This document shows, one piece after another, positions 20,276-42,714 of a stretch of DNA of 42,846 nt. The position numbers were made by a program, and so were the translations under genes. How positions within the stretch are numbered: the first letter of the stretch is position 1; each line of letters starts with the position of its first letter. The notes below the pieces were generated by a model. The model worked only from the letters and a program-made list of their open reading frames with translations, had not been told where the DNA came from and made no database searches. The stretch comes from Pseudogymnoascus verrucosus (taxonomy: Eukaryota), in the NCBI GenBank assembly GCA_001662655.1, contig KV460269.1; one strand, 5' to 3'.

Positions 20276-23002
20276 ATGATGCGGAATAAGAATTTCTCGT
20301 CACTGCAAAAGACGTACGATGAGTGTTACTTGATATGCTCAACCGCAGTGTACTTCGAGAGTCAGGTATGCGCAAGACAACCCTGCCGGCGAAGACCCCA
20401 TGCTAGGTCTTCACTCATTGAAGTTTATATTTACTAACGTATGGCCAATAGGGCAATGAAAGCGAGGCCTTGCGGTCATGGCGGTCAGCCCTCGACCAGA
20501 TTTACTTCTTCAACGCACGAACACCTGCCGATCTGCGCCCACGGTCAGAAACCGAGAAAGCATTGAAGGATAGTCTGAGGGATATGGAGTTGCAATGCAA
20601 AGAGCGGGTTGAACTTCTAGAGGCTCTGAGCGTTTCACGAGGAGATAAAGCGTCGGCGGACGAAGGCGCGGGCGTCGGGTCATCATCTCAACAGTCGAGC
20701 ACAGCGAACAAGCTCTCGAAGAGCCCTATAACTCCGCGCCCGTCAAACGAATCCGAAGCACCTGTTAGAGGATTTATTGGAGATGGTACTATTCCTGCTA
20801 TGAGCTATCCGGATCTCTCTCGGCCTGCTCGTCCTACACCATCCCCAAGACCAAGGCCACCAGTCCCTCCAAGGAATATATCCGACCGTGCGGTTGTTGG
20901 ACGGAACTCGTCAAGCACGACAGTATCGAGCGATACTGCTATAAACGCTGCTCAGGCTCAAGTGCCTTCTTCTGGGCCAGACAGCTTAGTTCCACCAAAG
21001 AAGGTATCCAAAAAGACGTCTAGGAGCAGAAGTCCACAGAAAGAGCGATCCATGCTTACTACACTACGATTCAACAAGGGAGAAAAGCGACCTACTAAAC
21101 CGGCACGGGTTTCTTCGAATACCACTGATGACACTGTGACTAGCAAAGCAGCAACTCTGGCATGGAACGCTCTCCGAAAAAAGCCGTCACCTAAAGATGA
21201 TGGTGGCAGAACACATGCTCTAGGAGTGGCTGCAAGCGCAACTGCGTTGGATAGCAGTCGCAAACAAGGAACAGCAGAACGACCAAGTTCCGATAACCAG
21301 GAAGTCTACTACAACAGTCATTCCAGGAGACTTGTCACTGGCCGGCCAAAGAGCAATAGCCCGCCAGAATCTACAACCCGAGGTGAATCATATTCTACTG
21401 GCGACGGTCCTGAATATCCATTTCCGTCTACAAACCCACAACAGCAGGCAGCTGGGTCTGAACCGATGCTAAATTTTCCTACAGTCTCCGAAATTCAGAA
21501 CCTTCCACCCATCGCTCCATCATCAGATCCCGAAACCACCTCTAGGTTTAAGTTTAGGACTCCGCCTCCGGTTCCACCAGCCAAGCCCGCAAAGTTCGAC
21601 GCTCCATCATATCCTACATACCTAAGGGAATACCCAGAAACTACTGCCAAGAAGAATGCTGTGGAAAGCCGAACCATGTTGCCACTCCGTAGGAGATCGC
21701 CCGCTAAGCCAAGGACCTCTGGGGAAGAGAGAAATCCGGAAGCAAACGGCTCGTCTTCCCGCAAAGACGCACGCCATGTAGGAAGAACGTCCCTCGATGA
21801 TGATAGCTCCTCCCCTAGTTATGATGAAAGGTCCGGTCGACCCAGGAGGCCCCGGAGGAAGATTCCAAAACAGAAGGAGAAAGAAGATGCCATTTTAGCA
21901 GACGCCGATGCACCGAAGGTTGAAGAGTCTGATGACTCTGCGGATAGGCAGGAGCAAGATGATTGGGCAAAGAAAGTCAAGTACATGATGAAGCATCTGC
22001 CCAAAGGCTGCGACGAGCTTGCCGCCAAGCAAATCTTCAATGAAATTGTTGTGAAGGGCGATGAGGTTCATTGGGACGATGTGGCTGGACTAGATGCTGC
22101 AAAAAATGCCTTGAAGGAGGCTGTGGTGTATCCATTCCTGCGGCCGGATCTTTTTATGGGTCTCCGAGAACCAGCTAGGGGTATGCTCCTCTTTGGCCCA
22201 CCGGGAACAGGCAAGACCATGCTTGCTAGAGCCGTGGCAACGGAATCCAGGTCGACATTCTTCTCGATCTCGGCGAGCAGTCTCACAAGTAAATATTTGG
22301 GCGAATCCGAGAAACTTGTCCGGGCGCTTTTCGCGCTGGCAAAATATCTCGCGCCTAGTATTATCTTTGTCGACGAGATTGACTCTCTGCTCTCTAGCCG
22401 TGCCGGTGCTGGCGAACATGAGGCTACTAGAAGAATCAAAACGGAGTTCCTCATCCAGTGGAGTGACCTCCAGCGCGCTGCTGCTGGCCGAGAACAGACT
22501 GATAAGGAGAAGGATGCGGGTGATCCCACTCGAGTGCTTGTCTTAGCTGCCACCAATATGCCCTGGCTAATTGACGATGCCGCGCGGAGAAGGTTTGTAA
22601 GGAGACAATACATTCCACTGCCGGAGGGTGATACCAGGGCCGTCCAGTTAGCAAATCTGCTTGGTCACCAGAAGCACAATTTGAGCGTGGAAGATATCCA
22701 GAAGCTGGTCATGATTACTGAAGGTAAGCATTCTGAAATTATATACGCCAAGCACCCATAGTACTTTGCTAACTATTCAAGGCTTTTCTGGCTCAGATAT
22801 CACGGCCCTGGCTAAGGACGCTGCTATGGGTCCTCTCCGTTCGCTTGGTGAAGCGCTCCTTCACATGCCCATGGACCAAATTCGCCCATTCCAATTTGAA
22901 GACTTTATGGCAAGTCTGGTGAACATTAGACCTAGCGTGAGTCAGCAGGGTCTCATGGAGTATGAGGCGTGGGCGAAGGAATTTGGTGAGAGAGGCGGTT
23001 GA
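20276..23002 (+). CDS. AAA+ ATPase of the spastin/fidgetin clade (yeast Sap1/Yta6-like)
   Basis: Introns 20366-20451 and 22724-22781; WDDVAGL, Walker A GPPGTGKT, Walker [24 protein letters not shown], Vps4_C-like tail; long disordered linker. Confidence 0.93.
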
Positions 23003-25496: not shown

Positions 25497-25762
25497 CGTG
25501 ATGTGTTTGGCAGCTCTATGGTGGTTCACGCGTGGTGAGCTTCCAGGTGAGGTGAAAGCGGTGAGTTGTCGGGTGATCACGTGATATATTTGCAACCTAA
25601 GGCACACATAACTGTGCCTTTTCCAGGGCCGAGACTAAGCCTTATACAGCGATGGTGGGGTTTTCTGCCATTGATTCCAAGAGCAGAGGACGCACAAGGT
25701 GCTGACCCAGGTCAATTTCAGTAACTGCACCGGCGAACTCAGAGTGGCGCATAACAATCAGG

Positions 25763-27178
25763 ATGGCGGAAACAGAAGAGCGTCCCTCAAAAATGAGGAA
25801 GCTCGAACCTGTCAACGATATTAGTATCTCCCAGACGGATGGGCAAGATGACATTGAAAACGATTTAAAAACCTCACAACAATCTATTGAGAAACACGAA
25901 ACTGAAAGCGCCGTACCCTCGGACTCAGAACATGAAGAGGAAGAACAAGATGTTAACAAAAACAAGACAGCCGGTGGTCTTGCGGGCGACTCGGGGACTC
26001 CCTCTATGTCCAAGAACCAATTGAAGAAGATTCGCAGAAAGGCTGCGTGGGAAGCCGGCAAAGACTATCGAAAGGAACAGAAGAAGGCCAAGATAACTGC
26101 GAAGAGGGCACAACGAGCAGCAGATAAGGCCGAATTGCTTGCGAGTGGCATTGACCTAGCCGCCCTGGCGAAACCACGTCCGACACCATCAACACAAGTT
26201 CCCGTAACGCTACTATTGGATTGCGATTTTGATGGCTATATGACGGACAAGGAGGTTATGAGCTTGGGTCAGCAGATTACGAGGTGTTATAGCGACAATA
26301 AGCATGCAAAATACCGAGCGCACCTGGTTGTTAGCAGCTTTGGCGGGCGACTAAAAGAAAGATACGAGACGGTGCTGTCGAACCATCATTTAGGTTGGAA
26401 GGGCGTTACATTTTCGGAGAAGTTCTTCGTCGAGGCAGCAAAAGATATCCATGATGTTATGATTGGGTCCGAAGGGGGAAGGGTGAAGGGTGCATTGCTA
26501 GGCGCTTTACTTCCAACAGACAACATTCCGGTACTGGTTCAAGAGCCAGACACGAGCGATAAAATCCAGCAACCAAACGAACCAGCCTCGGAGCCAGAAA
26601 AGCAAACTACAGCTCAACCCGCCCAGGCCGCGAATGGTTCTGAGTCATCAATCCCTTCTGAACCAGTATCGACGCCCCAAATTCCCGATATTCCAATTCC
26701 AACTACTCCCCAAATCGTGTACCTCTCTTCCGACTCCGAGCACACCCTTGACTCACTCTCACCATACACTACCTATGTTATCGGCGGCATTGTAGATAAG
26801 AACCGCCACAAAGGGCTATGCCACAAACGGGCCAACGAGCTCGGCATCCCGACAGCGAAGCTACCCATTGGAGAGTATATGCAGATGCAGAGCCGCACAG
26901 TACTAACAACGAACCATGTGGTTGAGATCATGGCGAACTGGCTGGAAACTGGGGACTGGGGGGAGGCATTCTTGAAGGCGATTCCAAAGAGGAAGGAGGC
27001 CGTCTTGAGGAAGGGTGGAAAGAAACAGAGGCCAGAGAATGGAAAAGAAGGTGAAAATGAAGGCGAAGATGATGTTCTGGAAGAAGATACGATGGAGATG
27101 GATGAAACGAATAATGATGAAGCTACACCCAAAGATTCGAAAGGGCAGAATGCTGCAGCGGTTGATGAGACAGTTTAA
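25763..27178 (+). CDS. TRM10: tRNA (guanine-9-N1)-methyltransferase (SPOUT)
   Basis: Single 471-aa ORF; MSKNQLKK, SLGQQITRCYSDN, VYLSSDS, YVIGGIVDKNRHKG, TAKLPIGEY, VLTTNHVVEI, IPKRK. Confidence 0.96.
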   Translation: MAETEERPSKMRKLEPVNDISISQTDGQDDIENDLKTSQQSIEKHETESAVPSDSEHEEEEQDVNKNKTAGGLAGDSGTPSMSKNQLKKIRRKAAWEAGKDYRKEQKKAKITAKRAQRAADKAELLASGIDLAALAKPRPTPSTQVPVTLLLDCDFDGYMTDKEVMSLGQQITRCYSDNKHAKYRAHLVVSSFGGRLKERYETVLSNHHLGWKGVTFSEKFFVEAAKDIHDVMIGSEGGRVKGALLGALLPTDNIPVLVQEPDTSDKIQQPNEPASEPEKQTTAQPAQAANGSESSIPSEPVSTPQIPDIPIPTTPQIVYLSSDSEHTLDSLSPYTTYVIGGIVDKNRHKGLCHKRANELGIPTAKLPIGEYMQMQSRTVLTTNHVVEIMANWLETGDWGEAFLKAIPKRKEAVLRKGGKKQRPENGKEGENEGEDDVLEEDTMEMDETNNDEATPKDSKGQNAAAVDETV

Positions 27179-28576: not shown

Positions 28577-31013
28577 ATGATGGATCGAGACATGAACTCC
28601 AGCACTAGCGCTCTCGATGCGAACCATCTTGAGAGGCCCTTCAGGTGCCTCGAGTGCCACTACGCATTTAGACGCGTAGAGCATCTCACTCGCCACGCGC
28701 GCAGCCACAGGGCGGAGCGCAACCTAGAATGCAGCTACTGCCGCAAGAGTTTCTACCGACTGTACGCATGGCCCTACAGTCCCATCAATTACGTGATAAG
28801 CCAATCGCTAACAGCGACCCCGCAGCGATGCCTTGAAGCGCCATGAGAAAGTCCACGCTGAGCCAAAGCGTAGCCTGCTTGGGAAAGGGGAAAGAGCATG
28901 TCTTGCCTGCGCTGCGTCGCGGAGAAAGTGCACCGGCGATACCCCGTGCTCGGCCTGTGAGCGGCGCTCCCTCGAGTGCGAGTATCCTGCGGCAGGCAAG
29001 AACCGACGGAGGCGTCCGGGAACGGCTCTTGATGAGTCCTCGAATGGTTTCAGCGCCGAGGATGTGATTACGAGCCCTCGTGAATCCATGATGTCTTGGT
29101 CAAATACCCCGCAGTCACCAGTTGCTGCTGGCCATCTAACTTACCAACCAGTGCTTAGTGATCAAGCTGGTGAAAAGCGGCCACGTTGTAGTCGATGCAA
29201 AGGTCGAAGATTGAGATATGAATATGGCACAACACGGCCGCGAACGATCAGGAGCCAGAGTCCGGCGCCAATTCAATATGATGGCTATGAGCAGTACCCT
29301 AACGATGACTGGACCACCCAGCAAGAGATAGTGCCTGGACACATACATTTCTTGGATGAGCGAGGCTTTGAGGAACTAGAGACGACCTCAACCTATAGTT
29401 ATGACTCGAATGTATTAGGAAATACACGCTCGCCTGTAGGGGATGATGCGACAGATATTGCAAGAAGTCCATCATTAAGTGCCCAGGGAGATGGTTTATC
29501 TCGCTCACGAGTAAATGCTGCCATGACGGCTTGGCCAACTATTCCTCCAATTCTGCTTGAGCTCAGTGTGCCAGCATTCATGGAGTTCTCAGAGAAGAGG
29601 AATAGAAGGGCTTTGGTTGATTACTTTTATAGCGTCTTCTCTCACCTTGTTGTTTTCAGCGAAGACATAGGAAACCCATTTCGACAGCTGATACTTCCCC
29701 TTGCTCACAGAGGATCTCCTGTCATGAATGCTATCTATGCTCTATCGAGCGCACATCTGGAGATCAGGGGCGTTAATACCGAGGAGAAGTCTTCATACTT
29801 TCATAACGAAGCCACACGAGGATTATCGAGGCTCATAAATAATAACGAGGGATTAAGCACAGAGGAAGTGCTTTGTGCAATATTGCTTCTGATTTACTAC
29901 GAAGCGGTTGGTTGACACCTATAGCTGGAGAATTCTTGAAATACTGACCAATCTACAGCTCGTCCAACGAGACAGCTACAATATGGTCATCGGTCACTTA
30001 AAAGGCGCAATGACTGTGATGACAACCTATTCTCAGACATCAAGCCCTACAAGCATGTTTCTCCAACGCGTTAGTAGATTTCCAAACTCAAATAACTTCA
30101 ATCTCACAAGCAGCAGGCTTTTCGATACTATGATGTTATCACAGCACTCTCTTTTGGCACACCGCCCATCTCGTCAGCTTCAACACCTCTTCTCCCATTA
30201 AACATCTTAGGAGCCACACGTCCTTCGCCCCACAACGACGTCGACTCCCTTCTAGGAATGACCACAAATTTTTGGCACATCATTCACCGCCTCTCTCTTC
30301 TCTGCGAACTAAAAGGAGAAATACAAAAGGCAGAAGCCCGCAGTGACGCTATGAAAGTCATGGTCCTCCGTACAGAACTCGAGTGTACATCTCATGCGAT
30401 TGAAAATTTCCTTATACAATGGAAGCCTTCTATTCGATGGCCAAGCGGACCATCGAAATCGGCACCTGATGATACAACTGAAATATGTAACTGTCCCAGC
30501 CCTGCTACTACTTCATCCTCACAACAGGTCCATTCGCCACCTCTCGGGTCATCAGATTGGGACTTTGACTTATCGTCTCCAAGCAATACCGCTAGTTGTG
30601 ATCTCACCGATCCCGATGCTCATATTTGGTCGATTATCAACAACGCGGAAGCATACCGCCAGGGTGCCCTCGTCTTTCTCTATCGCAACATTCACATGCT
30701 CGAGCGCTCTCACCCAAAAGTACAAAAGCACGGATCTCTCTCTCTGGCTGCTTGCGTGCGTGTCGTCGAATGGGCTGGTCCAATGCCCGCGCTGTTATGG
30801 CCAATGTTCATTAGTTCCGTTGAGGCAATAAGTGAAGAGGATCGTAGCATTGCGACGATGGCATTTTCTGGGACAGAGAGGAGACAGGGAATGCTGAATA
30901 TTACTCGAGCGTGGGAGATCGTTAAAGAGGTGTGGCGGAGGGGCGACGAAGGCGAGGAGGTGGATTGGAGAACCGTTTGTAAAGAAAGGGGGGTCAATCT
31001 CGTCTTTGGATGA
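28577..31013 (+). CDS. Hybrid transcription factor: two C2H2 fingers + Zn(II)2Cys6 cluster + Fungal_trans_2-type C-terminal domain
   Basis: CLECHYAFRRVEHLTRHARSH; CSYCRKSFYR|LDALKRHEKVH; CLACAASRRKCTGDTPCSACERRSLEC; NPFRQLILP, LLLIYYE, FRYYDVITALS, AEAYRQGALVFL, LLWPMF, VDWR. Introns 28762-28825, 29907-29958, 30070-30116. Confidence 0.9.
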
Positions 31014-31874: not shown

Positions 31875-34800
31875 ATGCATTCGACCAGCATAGGTGATGT
31901 ACTGGCACTTCTTAGCTTAGTCAAGACGACCTACGACAACTACACCGATTCGAGGTCGGCATGTTTAGAAGTCAAGGCAGAGTTGGTTTTTCTCCCCGAT
32001 AAATTTATAAATCTCTGACGTTTTATAGTCTCGACATCTTGCTGTCGACCTTGGAGAACGTCGACACAGCCATTCATCAAGCAGATGAGGGAAGCGTGCT
32101 GGCAGAAAAGGTATCTGCGGTCTTAACTAGGACGCATACAATCATCAAGGAATTACAAAACTATCTCGAGCGTTATATAAAACAGCCGGACAATATCTTT
32201 GAGAAGGCTTCTTTAGCAAGTCGTCGAATGTTATTTAACGAGGACAAAATACGACGATTTCACAGAAGGATCAAGCTGAACCTTCTAGAACTATCAGTCG
32301 TCACATCATCCTCCGCCCTAAGAGCGACAGAACGACTGGCGAAAGCACAAAAACATCATGAGATGCTAAATTGGCTCGACGATAGGTCCTGTCCACCTAG
32401 ACCTTCTATTCCACACTTGGAACTCCAGGAAGGCATCGTCTCATGGTTTCACGATACTACTGAGTTTAAGGAATGGTTGGAAGAACCAGGGCGAACGCTG
32501 ATATGCGATGGCAAACCAGGTGCTGGCAAAACTACACTATTGGCTGAAACATTGACTATGCTAGAGCGGAAAGCCGAAAAGGAATACGGCGCAAGGGCAT
32601 TCGTATTCTTCCAGCAACATAACAGAGATCAACAAAGGCTCCAAGATGTTCTGCGCATTTTTGTTCTGCAGTTGTGCAAAGCGGCTGAATCACTCCCAGA
32701 CCCAAGCGCCTCGGAGGAGCTCGAGAAGCTCTTTAAGAAATGCAGATCGGAATATTCTCCAAGCGCCGATGATTTGATGAAAGTACTCCAATCAATGGTC
32801 AAGAAGTTTCCAAGAATATACTTTGTCTTAGATGCTATTGATGAATGCTCCGACACTGATAACGTTCGGGACCATCTACTCAGATATCTCAGGACACTCC
32901 AACTAGAGGCTGGGGCTGGGGTATCCATTCTTATATCCTCTCGTCACGATCATCCACATCGAAACTTGTTTAATAAACTTGGAAAGCCGGCTTTCTTGAG
33001 AATAAGTGCAAGGGACGATGATATTCGATCTTACGTGAACAATGAGCTCGAAAGCTCATCTGAACCTATCGTTGAGAACATCTGCAAGGAAGGTAGTAGA
33101 CTTCCCGAGGAGATTGTGCAACTTCTCATTACTTCGTCATCTGGGATGTGCGTATACCATTGATATATTATGCTTGTGTGTAGGCTAAATTGCTTCCAGG
33201 TTTCTGATTGCAAAATTGGGCATTCGAATGTTATTAGCGCAGCTTAAAATTTCTGAACTTAAGTCTGCAATGCACAAAGTGGAAGCAGGATTGGCAGATC
33301 CTTACGATCAGATGTACGACCTCAATATCCAGCGAATCCAAAATCATCGCGAGCGTGCATTGTCCATTCTCGCAAGACTCGTGGTTACAAAAAAGGCACT
33401 TTCTATTAGAGAGCTCCAGGAGAGTCTTGTGATGAATGATGAGCCGGAAGCTATGGATTTTGATGAGTCTGACTTCATTCCCGCCAAGAACATTCTCAAC
33501 ATATGCGTCGGCTTAATTGTGGTGGATGAAGCTTCGCAAAATGTCAGTCTTGTTCATTCCACTCTACGGGGGTATGTACAACGAAAGCACGCAGACCTAG
33601 TCGAAAGGGGTCATATTCAATTCGCAACTGCCAGTCTACGATACTTGTGTCTAGGGCGATTTGCCGATACACACAATCCAGCCGAGATCCAGTCGGGCGA
33701 TATTGGTCAGATCATGCCAGCCAGAAATGAGAAGTACAAATTCTTGAGATACGCGGCAACGTACTGGGCTCCCCACTTCAGAAGTACTACCACCACTGGA
33801 AATACTAAAAGTCACAATGAAAGAGAGTCCGACCTTGAGCGACTTGCACTGGCTTTCCTCGGGAGCAGTACACTTGTTGCTAGTGCCAGCCGGGCAATGT
33901 TCTTCCCGGAGATCTTCTTTACCGAAAAGTCGAAGGAAAACATGACCGGTCTCCACTTAGCTTCACTTTTCGGTGTTGACAGTCTAGTTGAGAAAGTAAT
34001 AGATTTAGGGCATTCAATTAATGCCGGAAACGGGCGCGGCCAGACTCCATTGCATATGGCAGCTATATCACGCCAGACGAGTGTTGCTAGAATGCTATTG
34101 GCATCTACTGGCATTCATCCTGATGCACGAGATGCGGAGGGCTACACGCCACTTCATGTTGCTACAGCATTAGGGGCTATAGGGATTGTCGGTCTACTAG
34201 CAGTTAGAACTGATGTTGATGTGAACGCCGTCGATGAGGTAATTCCGGGGCCTACTTTTACCATTATCCCAACTGGACTCCCAGGTCACTACATCGCTCT
34301 CGATCTAGTTGGGCTGTTAGAAAAATTTCATGCAGCGCGAGTTTCCGCTGATCCTGATGAAGGAAATGTTATGGACCCATCGACGACATCAAGCAACACG
34401 GCTGCTACAGGCTTGCAATTGCCTCCTGTTAATGAGGGACCCTCCTCCGGGAATGACTCTCTTGTTTCAGTACCGCCGAAAGTCATCGGATCTCGGGCTA
34501 CTCTATCATACCAAGATCTACTTCCTACCTCTAACTTAACTCGTCCTCACGGTCGAACAGCTTTGCATTATGCAGCGAGGATTGGAAACACCGATATCGT
34601 TAAAATGTTGTTAGATAACCCATCCATCCCGATCGATATCAAGGATGGCCAGGGAATGACCCCATTGCACAAGGCTGCCAAATACGGCCACTTATCGATT
34701 GTCAAATTGCTAATGGAGCGAGCTGGAGTAACCGCCTGGGAGCATTCTACTGAGCAGACCGGTCGCTTGCCCATCCATCTAGCTGTAAAATATGGTCACA

Positions 34801-35135
34801 TGCATGTGGTGGCTTTCTTTGTCTCTCAAGATAAGGATTTAGTCAATGCTGCAGACAAAGATGGGAGTACGATAGTGCATCATTCAATCTACCATGATAC
34901 TACAACGGTCATTGAGGACATCCTGAAATACGACAATGTCATGCCTGATGTCAGAGACAAGCGCGGAAGGACGCCGCTATGGGAGGCCATAGAAATCAAC
35001 AACATCCCTATGGTCTCAATACTGCAACAGCTCTCTGGTGTTAATCAAGACCCTACGGACAACGAAGGCCGTCGACCGAACAAGGCGAGAAGCGAAGAGA
35101 AGGAGCAAGTTCCACTAAGTAGTACCTTGCATTAA
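31875..35135 (+). CDS. Fungal NLR-like STAND protein: HeLo-like N-terminal domain + NACHT NTPase + ankyrin repeats
   Basis: Exon 1 MHSTSIGDVLALLSL (31875-31981); introns 31982-32028 and ~33148-33199. Walker A GKPGAGKT, Walker B YFVLDAIDEC, SSR sensor, GMFLIAKL, LVHSTLRGY, FLRYAATYWAPH, and multiple GxTPLHxAA ankyrin repeats. Confidence 0.9.
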
Positions 35136-35740: not shown

Positions 35741-37943
35741 CTACAACCTCGCCCTTCCCTCCTCGCCCATGAGCTCTTCCACCCTCGCAAAGCGCTCAAA
35801 AAACCCAAGACACCCAGCATTCGCCAGCGTCGCGCTGGCCACCACCCTCTTCTCGCTGATAATCGCCTTCACCGGCACCTCAACCTTCTTTCCATTAATC
35901 GTCATCGGAAGCTCCGGACACTCGAATATATACTTCGGCACGTGGCGCGCGCTCAGTGCCTTCCTGATCGCGGCCCTGATCTCAGCCTCGAGCTCCACCG
36001 TGAACTTCGCGCCGGAGCGCATCTGCACGAAGAGAAACACGCGCTCGTCGCTGTCGCGCGGCCGTCGCTGCCCCACGCAGATGCTATCCAGGATGGCGGG
36101 GAAGTGCTGGACGACAGAGTAGATCTCGGCCGAGCCGAAGCGCACGCCCGATGGGTTGAGGACTCCGTCGCTGCGCCCAAGGAACTCAACACCGCCGGTC
36201 GACGCAACGATGCGGATATAGTCGCCCTGCGTCCAGACGTCGGCTAGCTGCGAGAAGTATGCTGAGTGGTAGCGTTCGGCACCACCATCGCCCCAGAACA
36301 TGACGGGCATACTGGGGAAGGACTTGCAAACGACGAGCTCGCCGGGTTGGCCTCGCGGGACGGGGACACCACTGGGAATTCCACTGCTATTTGTGGAGGA
36401 GGATGAAGGCTCGAAGACGCCGATATCCATGGCCAGTGCCGGGCGTTGTAGTTCGCCAGCGTAGACGGGGAGGGTGGGAACCTGGGCCGCGAAGCAGCAT
36501 GCCGTGTCTGTACCACCGGCAGAGTTGGCAAGCTGGACGTGAGCTCCGAAGGCGGTGCCGTAGAACCAGGCGTACTGCTGTGGAAGGAGGGCCGCGCCGG
36601 TGCAGTTCACCATTTCCAAGGCGGAGAGATCGAATTGCTTCTTCGGCTCAACCCCGCGGCGCTCGAGTTCTTCAAGGTAGCGGGGGGAGATGCCGAGATG
36701 AGTGACCTTGTGCTGGGCGGCAATCTCTAGGAGGACGGTGGGGGCGGTATGGAAGGGCGAGCCGTCATAGGTGATGATATGGGCGCCGGTAAGGAGGGAC
36801 GTGATGGATTTATTATACATGGCCCAGGAGGTTGTGGTGAAGATCATTTGCGTGGACGAGGGGCCGATGTTGTAGTGGAGGAGAAGTTCTTTCTTTTGAG
36901 AAATGAGAACGCCGCCTGCGCCATGGACGATGCATTTTGGCTGACCGGTTGTTCCGGAGGAGTAAGCAATTAGATAAGGTGTGTCGAAGGCGTGTTGGAA
37001 GAAAAGTTTCTCTCGTGTTATAGGCCTCGCCGTAGCTAAAAATGTAACAAGGGACTGGCTCTTGGAAATTTGCGAGATATCTCCCACATCTGCACCTCTC
37101 GGGCAAACGATGAACTTCTCAAATTCCGGCGTGCCCTTCAATGCATTCGCCACTTCGATGGCCTTTTGCTTGAGATTAGTTTTCTTTCCCGCATACACAG
37201 CGAGGTCCTCCATCAGCACGATTCGCGGCCGGACCTGTAGCAGCCGGTCAAGAATACCCTTCGTCCCCATGTCTGTGCTAGTGCTCGTAAAGATTGCACC
37301 GAGCGCCGTCACTGCGAGAAAGACGAGCATCGTATTGAGCGTATTCGATGCGACAATGGCGACGCGGTCCCCAGGGTTTACTCCCGCATTCCGGAACGCT
37401 GAGGCGTAGCGCGCGACAAGTGTGCGCAACTCGTCCCAGGTCACGGAGCGGACATCCGTGTTCCCTTCCCGGATGCTGGTTACGGCGAGCTTGTTAGGGT
37501 CCCGACCAGGGCCGTAGAGAATGTTTTCGGCGAGGTTGAGTCTCACACCGTCGAACCACTTCGGGATGCTGTGCATGGGAGCGGAAGTATCGACAACCTG
37601 GTTGCATCATTAGAAGATTTATCGTGAAATACGGGTCGGAAGAGTACTTTATTGTAAACGCCCGTGTAGATAATATCAGAATAATGGAAGACATCGTCCC
37701 AGAAATCGGCATAGCGAGATGTGGAATATTCATGAATATCATCGTATGTCTATCCTGAAGTATTAGACGTTCATCTCCTAAAATGATGCAACTTTTATCT
37801 CCTCATAACGAATGTTTGCTCACCTGTAGGCTCAAATTATGCCGCCTATTGACGTAGTGACGGAAGCGTTCGAGATATGTTGTTTCTGGATGCGGATGCT
37901 GCCAGAGCACCTTGGGAGGAACGATAGTGGCAGTTTGTGACAT
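35741..37943 (-). CDS. Acetoacetyl-CoA synthetase-like acyl-CoA ligase (ANL family), C-terminal PTS1-type ARL
   Basis: Introns 37823-37750 and 37647-37598; LWQHPHP, WFDGVRLNLAENIL, YSSGTTGQPKCIVHGAGG, GGTD, WTQGDY, GRSDGVLNPSGVRFGSAEIY, SARHVP, INGKKVEVPVK are AACS subfamily hallmarks. Confidence 0.92.
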
Positions 37944-38706
37944 GATGAGGAAGCACGGAAATCAATGTAATCTGAGTTGGCAAATCTAGAGAAAGGATCG
38001 CTAAAGAGAGTATAATAGGTAGGAAAGTAATAGAGCCAAGGCAGACCAGGGCCTCGGCGGTACTACATACCGAACGACGCTACTCACGATGTTGACGATT
38101 GTCCATGTGCCTTATTCCCCAATCCTATGCCGAGGAGTATGGACTTGGTGTAGGAAGCTGCACGAACCCAGGAAGTGTGCTGTTAACGCTAAGCTGCCGT
38201 GGAAAGACATTACCGTGTGAAGACATTGCCGTGGGAAGCTGGTCCGGCGGTTGTAGAAAGTAGGAACTAGTTCCCACCTTGAGCTGGGGAGGAGCGGGGT
38301 ACCGGACCGCTCCCTATTGGCACTCCTGTCCCTGTTATTGCCTTAGCGTTCTTTAATGTTACCCCGTTACCCCGCACATAAGGCCCCACTTCTCCAATAT
38401 TTCCCCAAGCTTCCGTCCCGTGGAATTGACTCCGTGAAGCTTTTCGGCTTCTTCTCCACCCGTAACCAGCCGACTGTATAGAAATTTATGTGGAGATTCT
38501 TGCTTGGTTTGTTAAGTTCTGTGTAGGAACATGTTTGTGAATCTCTTTCCTTGACCTCGTCGCAGAAGCATACTACCAAAAAGGCTGCTCTTCTTACACT
38601 TTTCGCCCCTTCTTTTAATCCCATTGCCACATATTTTCTGCTTAGCTTCTCTGGTTTCTGTATTTCCATTGTTGAAATTAACTATTTGTCTAATAAGCCA
38701 TTCATC
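37944..38706. promoter_or_regulatory. Divergent promoter for ligase and MDR with FarA-type CCTCGG sites, SYGGRG CreA-type sites, a CGG-N9-CCG inverted repeat and TACCCCG copies
   Basis: CCTCGG 38052-38057; CCGAGG 38130-38135; CTGGGG 38284; GCGGGG 38294; GGAGCGG...CCGCTCC 38291-38313; TTACCCCG x2 38359-38374. Confidence 0.55.
38196..38238. repeat. 16-bp tandem repeat (RCCGTGNRAAGACATT, ~2.7 copies)
   Basis: gccgtggaaagacatt accgtgtgaagacatt gccgtgggaag. Confidence 0.85.
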
Positions 38707-39908
38707 ATGCCTAAAGCAATAGTAATGGATGAGCAGCCTGGGAAACCAGGAAAAGTCTACTGGCCGTATGTCCCCTGTTGCTCCTGCCACTCACAAACTA
38801 ACTTCCCTCAGGCTCAAATCCATCACCGTCCCCCTTCCAACCCCCGGACCCAACGAGGTAGTTGTTCGCATACTCTGCGCAGCTCTTAACCACCGTGACC
38901 TTTTCGCGCGGCAAAAGCTCTACCGCGGTGCAGCAGGAAACATCCCCATCCTCGCAGATGGCTGCGGCATCGTCGTGTCAGCCGGCTCATCCGACAATGA
39001 GAAAAAGTGGCAAGGGAAACGAGTGCTAATTGCACCGGCGAGAGGGTGGAACGCTGATCTTAGGGGCCCAGAGAGGGAATTTGCGATTCTGGGGGGCACG
39101 AAGCAGTATCCTGATGGTACTTGCCAAGAATTCATCTGTGTCCCCTCTTCCCAGGTCCTCGCCTGCCCACCGCATCTGTCCGATGCCGAAGCAGCTGCCA
39201 TTCCTCTCGCAGCTCTAACTGCCTGGCGTGCAACAATGGTGAAGGCTGTTGTTTCTTCAGGGCAACGCGTGCTCGTCACTGGCATTGGTGGAGGCGTCGC
39301 GTTATTTGCTTTGCAATTTGCCGTTGCTGCTGGGGCAGAGGTGTGGGTTACGAGTGGCTCCGCAGAGAAGGTTGCCAGGGCCGTTGAGTTGGGGGCGAAG
39401 GGAGGAGTGAGTTATAAAGAGAAGGACTGGGCACAGAAGTTGTTAAAGCATACGAGTAAGGGGGGGAAAAGTGGGCTGTTCGATGCGGTAATTGATGGCG
39501 CAGGCGGAGATGTGATCACAGCGGCAGTCGTTTTGCTGCGAACCGGGGGGATTGTGGCGAGTTATGGAATGACTGTGGGTCCAAAGGTGGTTTTTCCTAT
39601 GCCGGCGGTGATGAAGAATATTGAGGTGCGTTTATTTCTTTGTTTCCTTCTCCTTCTTCCATGTCGTATTTTTATAAAGACATTGCCAATGTTGACAACA
39701 TTTCCACTCACAGATGCGTGGCTCCACAATGGGCTCACTCGCCGAACTGGCCGATGCCGTACGCTATATTTCTTCGAAACGTATCGTACCCGTGGTTGAT
39801 TCTGTGCACTCGCTACCTAACATCGAGGATGCGTTTGATGTTATGAAAGTGGGCAGGAATTTTGGGAAGATTGTGGTGAGGGTGCAGCAGGAAAGCGCAA
39901 AAATCTGA
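38707..39908 (+). CDS. Medium-chain dehydrogenase/reductase (quinone/enoyl reductase-like), C-terminal PTS1-type AKI
   Basis: Introns 38766-38811 and 39626-39713; ALNHRD, ADGCG, AAAIPLAALTAWRA, Rossmann VTGIGGGVA, GSTMGS, FGKIVV. The classical ADH GHE and structural Zn Cys lobe are absent. Confidence 0.9.
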
Positions 39909-40156
39909 TGCGAATTGATAGATTGTGAGATATTGTCTCAGAGGGCGGATGGCCCACAGGACAGCATAGGGAAGATCAAAGAAGCGATACAAGGCTTAAT
40001 TAGTAGGAGTCGACTTTCCAGTAGCTAGTCATTTGCTATCCATTTTATATACTGCCAGATACTAAACAGAATACTCCATGAAAGTTCCATGAAAATTCTA
40101 AGAAGATTATAATGGAGACTTATCACCCTCGCATTGATTATATGCTAAATACTATA

Positions 40157-41277
40157 CTAATGTGCTACAAGTCCGCCATCGATACACAAATCCGTACCCG
40201 TCGTGTACGCACTCGCCTCGCTCAGTAACAGGACCACCGCACCCTTCAGGTCCCGACGGTCGCCAAGTTTACGCATCGGCACGTTTTCTTCGATTTCAGC
40301 GATCACATTAGGACGCTGGTCGATGTTGCGGATGGTCATATCGGTTAGGATATATCTTTTCGGCGCCATGTATTAACTTCTGTGACTCATATTTCTGTTG
40401 TTGTCTCTTCTACCTTGAACAGCCAAGAAGGATTACCATTGTTACCAAAAAGAATGAAGAAAATGCAGAAGGAAGAAAGAAAATAAAAAAAGACAAACGA
40501 ACCCAGGACTAATCGAGTTTACACGGATATTCCATGGGATCAACTCATCAGCCATTGCTCGCGTCATCGCCAGCACACCACCTTTCGTCGCGCAGTACCC
40601 AGCAATCAACTTCCCAGGCACAGCGCAGTGTGCTCCGACCGAAGCAACGGTCAGGATAGAGCCGCCGGTGCCTTGGGCTTTCATGTGTTTGGCTGCTATT
40701 TGCACGGTGAGAAATGTGCCGAGGACCTATTTGATATTAGAGGATGCTCGTGGGGTCTTGATATATTTCACTGAAGGATGAAAGAATAGACAAAGGATTG
40801 ATCGGGTGCGATGTACATTAACCATAAGCAGAGATTTCAGTTCCTCCGTCGTCGTCTCGAGGAATGGCTTCTCCATACCAATTCCCGCTGCTGTGATACT
40901 TTCGCATTCGTTAGCACACCTCCATCAACTTTCTGGGAAACCTCTCACCAACAATCCACACTCCCGAAATCTCTCTTCACATTCTCAAACGCTGCCTCTA
41001 GCCCTGCCGCATCGGTGACATCAACATTGTACAACTTTGCCTTAGCACCGCACTCGGATTCTAGCAGCGCAAAGTCCGAGTGGGGTGTGTCCAGACGGTC
41101 GAAGGCGGCAATGTTGGCGCCTACTTCGGCACAGGCTCTGGCAAAGGAGAGGCCGAGGCCACGCGCACCGCCGGTGATGACTACGGTTTTGGAGGCGAGA
41201 GAGAGAAGCTGGGAGACATGCGTTTTGCGGTATGCGTCCATGTCCACAACAACTTTCGGGGAAGCGGGGGACGGCAT
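40157..41277 (-). CDS. Classical short-chain dehydrogenase/reductase (sorbose reductase/arabinitol dehydrogenase-like clade)
   Basis: Four exons; TGGARGLG, DVTD, ITAAGI, catalytic S and YCATK, IRVNSISPG|YILTDMT, DGG. Confidence 0.9.
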
Positions 41278-41775
41278 TATGATGGATATGGCTAGAAGGG
41301 CCAGAGAATGGATTCGTTTGCTGAAATGAGTATAGAAGAGGGAGATGAGATATTGAAATCGAGATAGAACCGTACAGAGAAGATACCCACTTTACTACGT
41401 AAACCTTGGCTCAGGACTTACCCCGTAGTGCCGATGTCCCGCGCTAAGTTTTATCACATTTCCGTATGCTCTTGTGCTCGGCTATAAGTTGGGTAGTTGG
41501 TGGTTATCTGCGATGTTGTTTGGGGTTGAGATGCCGATTGCAACAGGGGATGACTGGAAGGACGGCCTACCAATCATTTAGAATGTGGAGAACCCCACCC
41601 ACCATCCGACATAGTGTGGGGAAACGCAACCCCCCTTGCGACCTTACAGTAGCTGTATACAATCTTATAATCTTAACATAGCTATAGAACATGGCACTTT
41701 TGCAATCAAACATCCATACCAAAGATACTTTAAGGGATATCGCAAAGATATTGCTTCAGCTTGTCATTCTCTACA

Positions 41776-42714
41776 ATGTCGTCTCTCTCACCAACCTCTC
41801 CCCCCCCGGCTCAGTCCCATGCTCTCCTCTCCTATCCCAGCCCCTCAATCCTCCTCGTCACTCTCAACCGACCCCTGGCCATGAATGCTCTTCCGTTCCA
41901 AGCACACTGGGACCTCTCTGAACTCTGGTCCTGGTTCGACGACTCCCCCACTCTCCTCGTCGCCATCCTCACCGGCGCCGGTTCCGCCTTCTGCGCCGGC
42001 CAAGACCTGAAAGAAGTCCAAGCTAACCGACTGCAACCACCCTCTCAGCCATATCTTAAAGGAAGGCCGCCGTCTGGATTTGGCGGAATGAGCCAGCGGA
42101 AGGGGAGGAAACCGATTATTGCCGCTGTGAACGGAGTTGCGTTTGGAGGAGGGTTCGAGATGTGTTTAAATTGGTGAGTTGAAATCGGATAGACAGAATC
42201 CAACTGTACAGTCTCTGTTGCTGTGGGATTGCTATATATTTGAAAGGGAGGCTGACACATCGTTTGGTATAGTGATATCGTCATCGCAAGCCCACGCGCA
42301 CAATTCGCGCTGCCGGAAGCCCGACGCGGACTCTATGCCTCTGCAGGCGGTCTACCGCGCCTCGTGCACGGTGCTGGGATACAAATTGCATCAGAAATTG
42401 CCCTGACGGGGCGGTCAATCTCAGCCGAAGAAGGAATCCGATGGCTATTCGTGAACCGGATATCTAAAAGCCAAGAGACGCTATTGGAGGAGGCTATCAC
42501 GCTGGGCCGGGAGATTGCGCGGTTGAGTCCGGATGCGGTGATTGCAACTCGTGGAGGGCTGAGAGATGCGCATGAGATGGCAGGATTAGAGGAGACATGG
42601 GCGAGAACAAAGGAGAGGTATGAGAAGAAGTTGTATGGTGCACCGAATATGCTAGAAGGGTTGGCTGCGTTTATGGGCAAGCGGGAGCCGAAGTGGGTTG
42701 TGTCTAATTTATAG
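41776..42714 (+). CDS. Enoyl-CoA hydratase/crotonase (SidH/CaiD-like), C-terminal PTS1-like SNL
   Basis: Intron 42174-42272; TLNRP, AFCAGQDLKE, KPIIAAVNGVAFGGGFE, FALPEARRG (both catalytic Glu present), EGLAAFMGKREPKW. Confidence 0.92.

What the first reader, a model, noticed from the sequence alone, without database searches (positions are those of the whole stretch)
35741..42714. Candidate undescribed peroxisomal acyl-CoA pathway cluster: ligase + SDR + crotonase + MDR in two divergent pairs
Seen: four adjacent enzymes arranged as two head-to-head pairs (AACS-like ligase/MDR and SDR/crotonase). Established: CoA ligase, ketoreductase, dehydratase and enoyl reductase are the chemistry of one reductive turn on a 3-oxo acid (3-oxoacyl-CoA to 3-hydroxyacyl-CoA to enoyl-CoA to acyl-CoA). 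Ligase+crotonase+MDR is also the domain set of trifunctional propionyl-CoA synthase, and ligase+crotonase parallels fungal peroxisomal SidI/SidH. Inference: a co-regulated module that catabolises or detoxifies a short oxo/hydroxy acid, or makes a specialised acyl-CoA. I do not recognise it as a described cluster. The substrate is unknown and the cluster may extend past the right edge.
Basis: partly seen in the sequence, partly recalled or inferred. Interest (0 to 1): 0.8.

Follow-up and report, generated by a model that had tools for sequence, protein, structure and literature searches.

The report
Conserved fungal peroxisomal acyl-CoA gene cluster
Four neighbouring fungal genes for a CoA ligase, a double-bond reductase, a dehydrogenase and a hydratase form a real cluster that is kept in a few fungal lineages, probably processes a small organic acid inside peroxisomes, and has no known substrate.

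Summary
Window 35741-42714 carries four intact, intron-bearing genes in two head-to-head pairs: an acetoacetyl-CoA-synthetase (AACS) paralog, a zinc-free MDR reductase, a classical SDR and a SidH-related crotonase. Three of my spliced models equal the deposited Pseudogymnoascus verrucosus proteins VE01_09429, 09430 and 09432.

The ligase and MDR each belong to a small, strongly supported clade set apart from the widespread family copies. Both clades hold the same kinds of fungi: Pseudogymnoascus, one unnamed JGI contig and Chaetothyriales. Gene order is the same in seven Pseudogymnoascus genomes. Ligase and MDR lie four genes apart in two Cladophialophora genomes. Ligase, MDR and crotonase relatives sit on contigs of the same length in the JGI data.

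The three CoA-ester enzymes end in PTS1-like tails (ARL, AKI, SNL), and most of their relatives end in SKL. The SDR has no such tail. The MDR's nearest solved structure is the trans-acting enoylreductase PhiaB. The ligase has clade-specific changes at acyl-pocket positions.

Most likely this is a lineage-restricted peroxisomal module for a short oxo- or hydroxy-acid other than acetoacetate. Substrate, direction and right-hand extent are unknown. I found no description in print. Interest is moderate.

The parts
35741..37943 (-). AACS-paralog acyl-CoA ligase gene (VE01_09429). It has 3 exons (37943-37824, 37749-37648, 37597-35741), encodes 692 aa and ends in ARL.
   Evidence: The gene model is and is identical to P0121. 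The protein scores 606.3 bits on NCBIfam TIGR01217 (cut-off 520.9) and 639.6 on NF002937 (cut-off 639). It matches PDB 4wd1, an acetoacetate-CoA ligase, at 8.9e-117. It sits in an 11-row clade with support 100, apart from 39 canonical AACS.
37944..38706 (.). 763-bp divergent promoter region shared by the ligase and the MDR.
   Evidence: The sequence was read. It holds two CCTCGG sites (38052 and 38130), but that motif is not enriched in the window. It also holds two of the window's three TTACCCCG copies, a pattern I picked out after the fact.
38707..39908 (+). Zinc-free MDR, a putative NADPH enoyl-thioester reductase (VE01_09430). It has 3 exons (38707-38765, 38812-39625, 39714-39908), encodes 355 aa and ends in AKI.
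   Evidence: The gene model is and is identical to P0001. It matches PDB 9mc1 at 5.3e-69. The AF2 model has pLDDT 90.1. Its best structural match is 9mc1, 'Trans-acting enoylreductase PhiaB', with Z 46.9, rmsd 1.8 A, 341 residues aligned and 46% identity. It sits in an 11-row clade with support 100.
40157..41277 (-). Classical SDR (by position VE01_09431). It has 4 exons (41277-40949, 40898-40817, 40726-40503, 40355-40157), encodes 277 aa and ends in VAH, which is not a PTS1.
   Evidence: The gene model is. Pfam finds adh_short and adh_short_C2 on three exons. The spliced protein aligns almost without gaps with P0329 (47% over 264 columns). The alignment at the end of strand beta-2 shows Asp-Arg where NADP-dependent relatives have Tyr-Arg.
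41278..41775 (.). 498-bp divergent promoter region shared by the SDR and the crotonase.
   Evidence: The sequence was read. It holds one TTACCCCG copy and no CCTCGG site.
41776..42714 (+). SidH-related enoyl-CoA hydratase, a crotonase (VE01_09432). It has 2 exons (41776-42173, 42273-42714), encodes 279 aa and ends in SNL.
   Evidence: The gene model is and is identical to P0304. It matches PDB 7oeq, the mevalonyl-CoA hydratase SidH, at 2e-67 over residues 9-278. Both catalytic Glu positions are conserved in that alignment. It sits in a 10-row clade with support 100, outside the SidH-proper group.
28812..31013 (+). Zn2Cys6 transcription factor gene 4.7 kb left of the ligase. It is a possible regulator, but membership of the cluster is not shown.
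   Evidence: Pfam finds Zn_clus 1.4e-07 and Fungal_trans_2 1.6e-17 and 8.7e-30. A NACHT-ankyrin gene (32003-35135) lies between it and the ligase.

Best explanation
This is a genuine, co-inherited metabolic gene cluster of Pseudogymnoascus, built from diverged paralogs of enzymes that in most ascomycetes are dispersed in the genome and carry a PTS1.

Proposed mechanism:
1. Inside the peroxisome, the AACS-type ligase (ending ARL) uses ATP and CoA to activate a short 3-oxo- or 3-hydroxy-carboxylic acid that differs from acetoacetate. Its acyl pocket is remodelled, so the substrate is probably bulkier or more polar, roughly C5-C7 and possibly 3-methyl-branched or carrying a second polar group.
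2. The SidH-related crotonase (ending SNL) interconverts the 3-hydroxyacyl-CoA and the 2-enoyl-CoA.
3. The zinc-free, PhiaB-like MDR (ending AKI) reduces the enoyl-CoA double bond with NADPH.
4. The SDR has no peroxisomal signal and an NAD-type Asp. It most likely interconverts a hydroxy and an oxo group on the free acid outside the peroxisome, before activation. Less likely, it enters the peroxisome with a partner and acts on the CoA ester.

Shown: gene structures, family assignments, conserved catalytic motifs, PTS1-like tails, clade structure and linkage across genera.
Inferred: peroxisomal location, substrate class, order and direction of the steps, and the role of the SDR.
For: Gene models: all four are intact, and three are identical to deposited proteins.

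Ligase:
- It passes the AACS equivalog cut-off (606.3 against 520.9).
- It lies in an 11-row clade (5 Pseudogymnoascus, 2 JGI, 4 Cladophialophora; support 100, stem 0.45) apart from 39 sampled canonical fungal AACS. That canonical set includes the Pseudogymnoascus copy V502_02032.
- 16 positions that are at least 90% conserved in 109 canonical AACS are replaced in at least 6 of 7 clade members.
- These include I333A, which aligns with Acs Val310, and I433S/S434A, which lie next to Gly435, the position of the Acs 'Trp wall' W414.
- The passages I read of PMC9426453 give the Trp-to-Gly pocket logic and show that a canonical fungal AACS is selective for acetoacetate.

MDR:
- Its 11-row clade (support 100, stem 0.31) draws on the same lineages: Pseudogymnoascus, the JGI contig, C. 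psammophila and C. bantiana. It also holds Exophiala mesophila, Hyphodiscus hymeniophilus and one unnamed Logan protein, for which no ligase relative was seen.
- Its best structural neighbour is the trans-acting enoylreductase PhiaB.

Crotonase: 2e-67 to SidH, with both catalytic Glu kept.

Linkage:
- Locus tags run crotonase, one untagged gene, MDR, ligase in 5 Pseudogymnoascus genomes (VE01, VE02, VE03, VF21, V501).
- VE04 shows the same order with the ligase taken.
- V499 shows crotonase and MDR only.
- In C. psammophila and C. bantiana the ligase and MDR accessions differ by 4 and lie on the same contig.
- JGI proteins P0242 (ligase, 67%), P0008 (MDR, 66%) and P0249 (crotonase, 64%) all come from a contig of 225,370 nt.

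Peroxisomal tails: relatives end in SKL in 90 of 120 MDR hits, 72 of 120 AACS hits and 33 of 52 crotonase hits. Section 6 of PMC3709128 states that ARL and AKL variants are functional PTS1 signals. It also lists SidH orthologues ending in SNL with positive PTS1 scores.
Against: - No expression, localisation or activity data exist, and no RNA run was listed.
- The ligase scores as well on the bacterial AACS models as the canonical fungal copy does (606 against 586 bits), so it may still use acetoacetate.
- The SDR was not shown to be conserved with the others outside Pseudogymnoascus. Its best full-length relative is only 47% identical (Phialophora macrospora).
- No close crotonase was seen in the two Cladophialophora genomes that link ligase and MDR. 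Only a 51% C. immunda protein outside the clade turned up, in a low-sensitivity search that scored 1,370 candidates.
- E. mesophila, Hyphodiscus and C. immunda each appear in only one of the two clades.
- The crotonase clade also holds six Onygenales proteins, and no clade-type ligase or MDR from Onygenales was seen.
- AKI and SNL are weak PTS1 variants.
- Adjacency on the JGI contig is inferred only from equal contig length.
- The two promoters share no more 8- or 9-mers than shuffled sequence does (13 against a mean of 11.1; 3 against 2.96).
Confidence: 0.42

Rival explanations
1. The four genes are the left end of a larger secondary-metabolite cluster that runs past the right edge of the window. 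On this reading the ligase supplies a starter or acyl unit. The MDR acts as a trans-acting enoylreductase on a carrier-bound chain, as PhiaB does. The SDR and crotonase act as free-standing ketoreductase and dehydratase or as tailoring enzymes.
For: The nearest solved structure to the MDR is PhiaB, named by its depositors as a trans-acting enoylreductase of phialotide A biosynthesis (Z 46.9, 46% identity). The window ends 132 bp after the crotonase stop, so the right flank cannot be seen. The patchy, lineage-restricted distribution is typical of fungal biosynthetic clusters. One MDR relative carries a source's name 'putative secondary metabolism biosynthetic enzyme' (P0060). A Zn2Cys6 factor lies nearby.
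Against: No PKS, NRPS, terpene synthase, P450 or transporter domain was found in the 21 largest ORFs of the 35 kb to the left. That stretch holds housekeeping genes and an NLR-type gene. PhiaB is no closer to the window MDR (46%) than the ordinary SKL-ending family members are (52-57%). PTS1-like tails on three proteins point to free CoA esters in peroxisomes rather than a cytosolic megasynthase, although peroxisomal biosynthetic steps are known (SidI, SidH and SidF).
Confidence: 0.2
2. This is an oxidative, beta-oxidation-like auxiliary pathway for an unusual unsaturated or hydroxylated short acid. The ligase activates the acid. The MDR removes an awkward double bond, in the way acryloyl-CoA or dienoyl-CoA reductases do. 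The crotonase hydrates the 2-enoyl-CoA. The NAD-type SDR oxidises the 3-hydroxyacyl-CoA to the 3-oxoacyl-CoA for a thiolase encoded elsewhere.
For: The SDR has Asp-Arg at the end of strand beta-2, where the NADP-dependent mannitol dehydrogenase and quinuclidinone reductase have Tyr-Arg. By the rule I recall for classical SDRs, that favours NAD and so a catabolic direction. The MDR hits acrylyl-CoA reductase models weakly (TIGR02823 1.2e-17, NF041172 1.2e-16). The crotonase hits the 2,3-dehydroadipyl-CoA hydratase PaaF and short-chain hydratases. The host lineages are soil and oligotrophic fungi.
Against: The SDR lacks any PTS, so it would be separated from peroxisomal CoA esters. No thiolase, acyl-CoA oxidase or acyl-CoA dehydrogenase is visible in the window. 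All the model scores cited are far below their curated cut-offs.
Confidence: 0.2
3. This is a chance neighbourhood. The four oxidoreductase and CoA-enzyme paralogs sit side by side without any shared pathway, and synteny within one genus reflects only recent common descent.
For: Seven of the genomes that show the full order belong to a single genus. The SDR and crotonase are not shown to be linked in Cladophialophora. The crotonase clade has a different taxon range (Onygenales) from the ligase and MDR clades. No shared promoter motif rises above chance.
Against: The ligase and MDR clades draw on the same lineages (Pseudogymnoascus, the JGI contig and Cladophialophora) and branch in the same order among them. 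They also stay within four genes of each other across two fungal classes. All three CoA-ester enzymes occur on a JGI contig of the same length, at matching identities of 64-67%. 0 of 34 long-flanked loci of ordinary MDR relatives show such neighbours.
Confidence: 0.1

Closest known systems
SidI / SidH / SidF, the peroxisomal anhydromevalonyl-CoA branch of fusarinine-type siderophore synthesis in Aspergillus
   Same: Both involve an acid-CoA ligase and a crotonase-family hydratase acting on a short 3-hydroxy acid CoA ester inside peroxisomes. The window crotonase matches SidH at 2e-67. PTS1 variants such as SNL occur in true SidH orthologues.
   Different: The window crotonase falls outside the SidH-proper group. 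In Histoplasma the published SidH is EEH07298.1, while the member of the window's clade is EEH05219.1. The ligase here is AACS-type and ends in a PTS1, whereas the paper describes Aspergillus SidI as carrying a PTS2. No SidF, SidA or NRPS gene is in the window. The siderophore pathway has no MDR or SDR step.
Acetoacetyl-CoA synthetase (AACS / Kbc1; TIGR01217; PDB 4wd1)
   Same: The ligase has full-length similarity to AACS and scores above the equivalog cut-off. It has an N-terminal ACAS_N domain (precomputed Pfam). It has Gly at the Acs 'Trp wall' position (PMC9426453 passages). Most fungal AACS also end in a PTS1.
   Different: It forms a separate clade on a long stem. It carries 16 clade-specific replacements at otherwise conserved positions, several of them at or beside acyl-pocket positions. 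A canonical AACS exists elsewhere in Pseudogymnoascus (V502_02032, 48% identity).
PhiaB, trans-acting enoylreductase of phialotide A biosynthesis (PDB 9mc1), and the YogA-like zinc-free MDR family
   Same: The fold and domain order are the same, with 46% identity, Z 46.9 and rmsd 1.8 A over 341 residues.
   Different: No PKS partner is visible here. The window protein ends in a PTS1-like AKI. It belongs to a distinct 11-member clade that is linked to an AACS-type ligase. I could read no paper on PhiaB: 'phialotide' occurs in none of the papers searched. Only the PDB title is known to me.
Propionyl-CoA synthase (Pcs) of the 3-hydroxypropionate bi-cycle, a fused ligase-dehydratase-reductase
   Same: It uses the same three catalytic families in the same chemical logic: acid to acyl-CoA to enoyl-CoA to saturated acyl-CoA. 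This rests on established knowledge that I recall. PDB 6eqo appears among the ligase hits at 1.1e-13.
   Different: Here the three activities are separate genes and the host is a eukaryote. The ligase is AACS-type rather than ACS/Pcs-type. The similarity to 6eqo is weak. The enlarged pocket argues against a C3 substrate.
Clostridial-type reductive conversion of acetoacetyl-CoA to butyryl-CoA (Hbd, Crt, enoyl-CoA reductase)
   Different: That pathway starts from a thiolase rather than a ligase. Its enoyl reductases belong to other families. Here the SDR lacks the targeting signal that the other three enzymes carry.

Membership tests
Acetoacetate-CoA ligase (AACS, NCBIfam TIGR01217 / NF002937) | Whole-protein HMM score above the curated cut-off | tested here: met
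   P0121 scores 606.3 bits (cut-off 520.9) and 639.6 bits (cut-off 639).
Acetoacetate-CoA ligase (AACS, NCBIfam TIGR01217 / NF002937) | Small residue (Gly) in place of the Acs 'Trp wall', opening the acyl pocket | tested here: met
   Acs W414 aligns with Gly435 of the window ligase. The Trp-to-Gly rule is taken from PMC9426453 passages.
Acetoacetate-CoA ligase (AACS, NCBIfam TIGR01217 / NF002937) | Orthology with canonical fungal AACS and the same pocket-lining residues | tested here: not met
   It forms a separate 11-row clade with support 100. It has 16 clade-specific replacements, including I333A (Acs V310 position) and I433S/S434A.
Acetoacetate-CoA ligase (AACS, NCBIfam TIGR01217 / NF002937) | Activity on acetoacetate | not testable with these tools
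   This needs an enzyme assay.
SidH (mevalonyl-CoA hydratase) | Crotonase fold with both catalytic glutamates | tested here: met
   ECH_1 is found on both exons. The alignment to 7oeq keeps both Glu positions.
SidH (mevalonyl-CoA hydratase) | Orthology: groups with SidH proper | tested here: not met
   In the 51-row tree it lies in a 10-row clade inside a 37-row group, apart from the 14-row Eurotiales/Onygenales SKL group. The Histoplasma SidH named in PMC3709128 is a different protein from the Histoplasma member of the window's clade.
SidH (mevalonyl-CoA hydratase) | Genomic co-location with siderophore genes (sidF, sidA, NRPS) | tested here: inconclusive
   None was found among the 21 large ORFs of window 1-35135. 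The right flank lies beyond the window.
PhiaB-type trans-acting enoylreductase / zinc-free MDR | MDR fold closest to a solved enoyl-thioester reductase | tested here: met
   9mc1 matches with Z 46.9, rmsd 1.8 A, 341 residues aligned and 46% identity. The next hits are two putative ADHs at Z 41, and crotonyl-CoA reductases at Z 38-39.6 tie with ordinary alcohol dehydrogenases.
PhiaB-type trans-acting enoylreductase / zinc-free MDR | Partner polyketide synthase encoded nearby | tested here: inconclusive
   No PKS domain was found among the ORFs scanned in the window. The right flank is unseen.
Classical SDR | Rossmann Gly motif and Ser / Tyr-x3-Lys catalytic residues | tested here: met
   The spliced protein shows the Gly-rich motif, a Ser and Y-C-A-T-K. 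Pfam finds adh_short on exons 1 and 3. The motif definitions are recalled.
3-oxoacyl-CoA reductase / 3-hydroxyacyl-CoA dehydrogenase | Specific similarity to characterised CoA-ester SDRs | tested here: inconclusive
   The exon hits are spread over mannitol dehydrogenase, quinuclidinone reductase, FabG and 3-hydroxybutyrate dehydrogenase at similar weak E-values. The atlas gives only generic SDR clusters.
PTS1-targeted peroxisomal matrix proteins | C-terminal tripeptide of SKL type | tested here: met
   This holds for three of the four proteins: ligase ARL, MDR AKI and crotonase SNL. Relatives mostly end in SKL. PMC3709128 names ARL and AKL as functional and lists SidH orthologues ending in SNL. 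The SDR ends in VAH and does not meet the feature.
PTS1-targeted peroxisomal matrix proteins | Actual import into peroxisomes | not testable with these tools
   This needs tagged proteins.
Fungal metabolic gene cluster (co-inherited) | Linkage kept beyond the genus | tested here: met
   Met for ligase plus MDR: their accessions are 4 apart in C. psammophila and C. bantiana. For ligase, MDR and crotonase, a JGI contig of the same length holds all three. Not shown for the SDR.

The most novel reading that the evidence does not exclude
The cluster encodes a PKS-independent, peroxisomal 'reverse beta-oxidation-like' route. A neofunctionalised AACS captures a free 3-oxo or 3-hydroxy acid, for example 3-oxoadipate, a mevalonate-type 3-hydroxy-3-methyl acid, or a C5-C6 keto acid. 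A SidH-type dehydratase and a PhiaB-type reductase then turn it into a saturated, specialised acyl-CoA. That product is either a building block for an unseen product or a new salvage pathway. The module would have moved as a unit between Leotiomycetes and Chaetothyriales.
Probability: 0.15. Interest if true: 0.7.

Novelty: new variant of a known kind. Interest (0 to 1): 0.45.

Why it matters
If the reading is right, fungi have a small, mobile peroxisomal module that couples a re-tooled ketone-body ligase to a dehydratase and an enoyl-CoA reductase. That combination is known as a fused enzyme in bacterial CO2 fixation and as separate steps in clostridial fermentation. I did not find it described in fungal peroxisomes.

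It would also give a first function to two large, almost uncharacterised families that carry PTS1 tails across Ascomycota: the YogA/PhiaB-like MDRs and the non-SidH crotonases. It would provide a defined test case for how AACS specificity is changed.

The practical stakes are modest. This is one of many orphan fungal clusters, and nothing yet points to an unusual product.

Tried and rejected
- Whole genome: none is held for this window, so the right flank and paralog counts could not be checked.
- Earlier findings of this scan: three look-ups returned nothing.
- RNA evidence: no RNA holder was listed, and read laying was not used.
- Metagenome scan for the MDR clade: it returned only relatives of at most 56% identity. 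The 225,370-nt JGI contig was not among the 80 loci, so adjacency there could not be read.
- SDR orthologues: a full-library search with exon 1 gave no representative above 53% over most of the exon, apart from two short fragments (76% and 60%). Names of the top ten showed no Cladophialophora neighbour of the ligase or MDR. The atlas gave only generic SDR clusters.
- FarA/FarB-type CCTCGG motif: 28 sites against 20.7 expected in the window, and 6 of 100 shuffles reach 28. Two sites lie in the ligase-MDR promoter and none in the other. Not used as evidence.
- SreA-type ATCWGATAA: 17 matches with one mismatch allowed against 20.9 expected, and none exact. This gives no sign of iron regulation.
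- Shared promoter words: no more than in shuffles. TTACCCCG occurs three times in the window, all in the two promoters, but I picked this out after the fact.
- Identity of 9mc1: four paper searches found nothing. The title came from the structure search. 'Phialotide' occurs in none of the papers searched. PMC10921412 was read in passages and concerns FMN-type trans-acting ERs of another family.
- PTS2 in the SDR: I saw none on reading its N-terminus (consensus recalled).
- Bacterial operon origin: the bacterial-looking loci among the 80 had no ligase or crotonase, and only 3 had a 28-30% SDR.

Full report
**What is there.** Stop-to-stop ORFs and hand-built splice models give four genes in window 35741-42714.
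- A 692-aa ligase on the minus strand, with 3 exons.
- A 355-aa MDR on the plus strand, with 3 exons.
- A 277-aa SDR on the minus strand, with 4 exons.
- A 279-aa crotonase on the plus strand, with 2 exons.

All eight introns are GT..AG and 46-147 nt long. The spliced ligase, MDR and crotonase are identical to database proteins P0121, P0001 and P0304. Their sources name these as VE01_09429, VE01_09430 and VE01_09432 of Pseudogymnoascus verrucosus. The SDR model aligns almost without gaps with a 272-aa homologue (47% over 264 columns). Pfam confirms the four families. Ligase and MDR are head to head across 763 bp, and SDR and crotonase across 498 bp. MDR and SDR converge, with 248 bp between their stop codons.

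**Surroundings.** To the left lie a NACHT-ankyrin (NLR-like) gene (32003-35135) and a Zn2Cys6 factor (28812-31013). Further left are housekeeping genes: an LCAT-family acyltransferase, Sec24, COG6, an AAA ATPase and a tRNA m1G methyltransferase. No PKS, NRPS, P450 or transporter domain was found among the 21 large ORFs scanned. The window ends 132 bp after the crotonase stop, and no whole genome is held, so the right side is unknown.

**The ligase.** It matches the solved acetoacetate-CoA ligase 4wd1 at 8.9e-117. It passes the curated AACS cut-offs (606.3 against 520.9, and 639.6 against 639), scoring slightly better than the canonical Pseudogymnoascus AACS P0164 (585.6 and 619.3).

It is nevertheless not the ordinary fungal copy. 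Of the 120 listed hits, three are Pseudogymnoascus proteins at 95-100% identity, one JGI protein is at 67% and two Cladophialophora proteins are at 60%. The other 114 are at 47-51%.

I built a FastTree tree of 50 rows. It used 11 clade candidates and every third canonical hit plus P0164, leaving out rows under 590 aa. The 11 candidates form one clade with support 100 on a stem of 0.45.

I then compared 7 clade members with 109 canonical AACS of at least 640 aa. The window ligase keeps 195 of the 241 columns that are at least 90% conserved. Sixteen such columns carry a different residue in at least 6 of the 7 clade members.

The alignment to Salmonella Acs places three of these changes at or beside the acyl pocket.
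- A333 lies at the position of Acs Val310. Canonical fungal AACS has Ile there, and 4wd1 has Met.
- S433 and A434 lie directly before Gly435, the position of Acs Trp414.
- T407 lies at Acs residue 386, with the clade-specific A409 two residues on.

That these Acs residues line the acetate pocket is recalled knowledge. The Trp-to-Gly point, and the selectivity of a canonical fungal AACS for acetoacetate, are stated in passages of PMC9426453. I infer an altered, probably larger or more polar, acyl pocket. The protein may still accept acetoacetate.

**The MDR.** Its best sequence match in the PDB is 9mc1 at 5.3e-69. An AlphaFold2 model built from 44 aligned sequences (pLDDT 90.1) matches 9mc1 at Z 46.9, rmsd 1.8 A, 341 aligned residues and 46% identity. 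The entry is titled 'Trans-acting enoylreductase PhiaB involved in the phialotide A biosynthesis pathway'. Next come two putative alcohol dehydrogenases at Z 41. Crotonyl-CoA carboxylase/reductases at Z 38-39.6 are effectively tied with ordinary alcohol dehydrogenases.

Where zinc alcohol dehydrogenases carry the His of the 'GHE' motif (recalled), the window protein reads Ala-Asp-Gly. It is therefore of the zinc-free type that reduces C=C bonds.

Of 120 listed relatives, seven are at least 89% identical; five of these are named Pseudogymnoascus proteins and two are unnamed Logan proteins. One JGI protein is at 66%, Exophiala mesophila at 63% and Cladophialophora psammophila at 61%. The rest are at 52-60%. 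In a 66-row tree, an 11-row clade with support 100 and a stem of 0.31 holds 5 Pseudogymnoascus proteins, the JGI protein, E. mesophila, C. psammophila, C. bantiana, one Logan protein and Hyphodiscus. It draws on the same lineages as the ligase clade (Pseudogymnoascus, the JGI contig and Cladophialophora) and branches in the same order among them. E. mesophila, Hyphodiscus and the Logan protein appear only here, and C. immunda only in the ligase clade.

**The crotonase.** The full-length protein matches SidH of Aspergillus fumigatus (7oeq) at 2e-67 over residues 9-278, with both catalytic glutamates in place. The next PDB hit is at 2.9e-40.

In a 51-row tree it lies in a 10-row clade with support 100. 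That clade also holds one Logan protein, the JGI protein P0249 and six Onygenales proteins. It sits inside a 37-row group of mostly SKL-ending proteins and apart from a 14-row Eurotiales/Onygenales group. Section 6 of PMC3709128 lists the Histoplasma SidH orthologue as EEH07298.1, whereas the Histoplasma member of the window's clade is EEH05219.1. So the crotonase is a SidH relative, not SidH itself.

**The SDR.** It has the classical Gly-rich motif, a Ser and Tyr-x3-Lys. Its exons hit many SDR models at similar weak scores. In the alignments, the NADP-dependent quinuclidinone reductase and mannitol dehydrogenase have Tyr-Arg at the end of strand beta-2, where the window protein has Asp-Arg. 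By the recalled rule for classical SDRs, an acidic residue there favours NAD.

The protein ends in VAH. I saw no PTS2-like motif at its N-terminus, judged against a recalled consensus. A search of the full library with exon 1 found no representative above 53% over most of the exon, apart from two short fragments at 76% and 60%. The best full-length relative is Phialophora macrospora PV04_05410 at 47%.

**Peroxisomal signals.** The ligase ends in ARL, the MDR in AKI and the crotonase in SNL. Among the listed relatives, SKL ends 90 of 120 MDRs, 72 of 120 AACS (with 21 more ending in AKL, 11 in SRL and 7 in ARL) and 33 of 52 crotonases. All three parent families are therefore predominantly PTS1 proteins. 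PMC3709128 states that ARL, AKL and PKL are functional PTS1 variants. It also lists SidH orthologues of three Aspergillus species that end in SNL with positive predictor scores. Import itself was not tested.

**Linkage.** Locus tags and accession numbers give the following picture.
- Crotonase, one untagged gene, MDR and ligase run in consecutive numbering in VE01, VE02, VE03, VF21 and V501.
- VE04 shows the same order.
- V499 shows crotonase and MDR two tags apart.
- In C. psammophila the ligase is EXJ68024.1 and the MDR is EXJ68028.1.
- In C. bantiana the MDR is KIW95431.1 and the ligase is KIW95435.1. In both species the two genes lie on the same contig.
- JGI proteins for the ligase (67%), MDR (66%) and crotonase (64%) each come from a contig of 225,370 nt.

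As a contrast, I examined 80 metagenome loci encoding ordinary MDR relatives. Of these, 34 have at least 8 kb of flank. None holds a ligase or crotonase relative at E no greater than 1e-10, and three hold a 28-30% SDR. The linkage is thus a property of this clade, not of the family.

**Reading.** The simplest account is a lineage-restricted module of re-tooled peroxisomal CoA-ester enzymes. Activation by the ligase, dehydration or hydration by the crotonase, and NADPH-dependent saturation by the MDR would all take place in the peroxisome. The untargeted NAD-type SDR would act on the free acid.

A biosynthetic role feeding an unseen synthase, and an oxidative auxiliary beta-oxidation role, are live rivals. 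The substrate is unknown. Candidates worth testing are listed under next steps.

**Print.** These searches found no description of this cluster:
- Six locus tags.
- AACS, enoyl-CoA hydratase, gene cluster, peroxisome and fungus together.
- AACS, PTS1, peroxisome and Aspergillus together.

The library lacks most subscription journals, and no supplements were consulted.

**Verdict.** The cluster is real, conserved and undescribed, and it is built from known families. It is a new variant of a known kind. Interest is moderate.

Noticed in passing
window 32003-35135 (+): An NLR-like gene has an NPHP3_N/NACHT domain (7.4e-30 and 1.8e-11) followed by ankyrin repeats (Ank_2 8.3e-44). It is split into two ORFs at about 33163-33189, presumably by an intron. 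It sits between a Zn2Cys6 factor and the cluster.
   Followed up: no
window 28812-31013 (+) and 9819-10487 (+): There are two fungal transcription-factor genes. One has Zn_clus plus Fungal_trans_2, and the other has Fungal_trans_2 only. The first lies 4.7 kb from the ligase and could regulate the cluster.
   Followed up: no
relatives of the three CoA-ester enzymes (P0001-P0298): Across Ascomycota, canonical AACS, the YogA/PhiaB-like MDR family and SidH-like crotonases almost all end in PTS1 tripeptides. This points to a dispersed, largely uncharacterised set of three peroxisomal enzyme families, of which this cluster is a linked, diverged copy.
   Followed up: partly
window 38358-38385 and 41415-41430: The 8-mer TTACCCCG occurs three times in the 42.8-kb window, and all three copies lie in the two divergent promoters. 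I picked this out after the fact. The overall count of shared words is at chance level.
   Followed up: partly
hit lists: No protein named as Pseudogymnoascus destructans appears among the close relatives of the ligase, MDR or crotonase, whereas seven to eight other Pseudogymnoascus genomes do. The cluster may be absent from the bat pathogen. This is weak evidence, resting only on hit lists.
   Followed up: no
crotonase clade, P0250-P0255: Six Onygenales proteins (Coccidioides, Histoplasma, Paracoccidioides, Polytolypa, Emydomyces and one unnamed) share the window crotonase's clade. Five end in unusual tails (SML, SSL, PNL) and the Emydomyces protein ends in FGP. No clade-type ligase or MDR from Onygenales was seen.
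   Followed up: partly
window 2531-3742 (-), 14532-16790 (+), 17861-19669 (+), 20452-22761 (+), 25706-27178 (+): The left part of the window holds ordinary housekeeping genes: an LCAT-family acyltransferase, Sec24, COG6, an AAA ATPase and a tRNA (guanine-1) methyltransferase.
   Followed up: no
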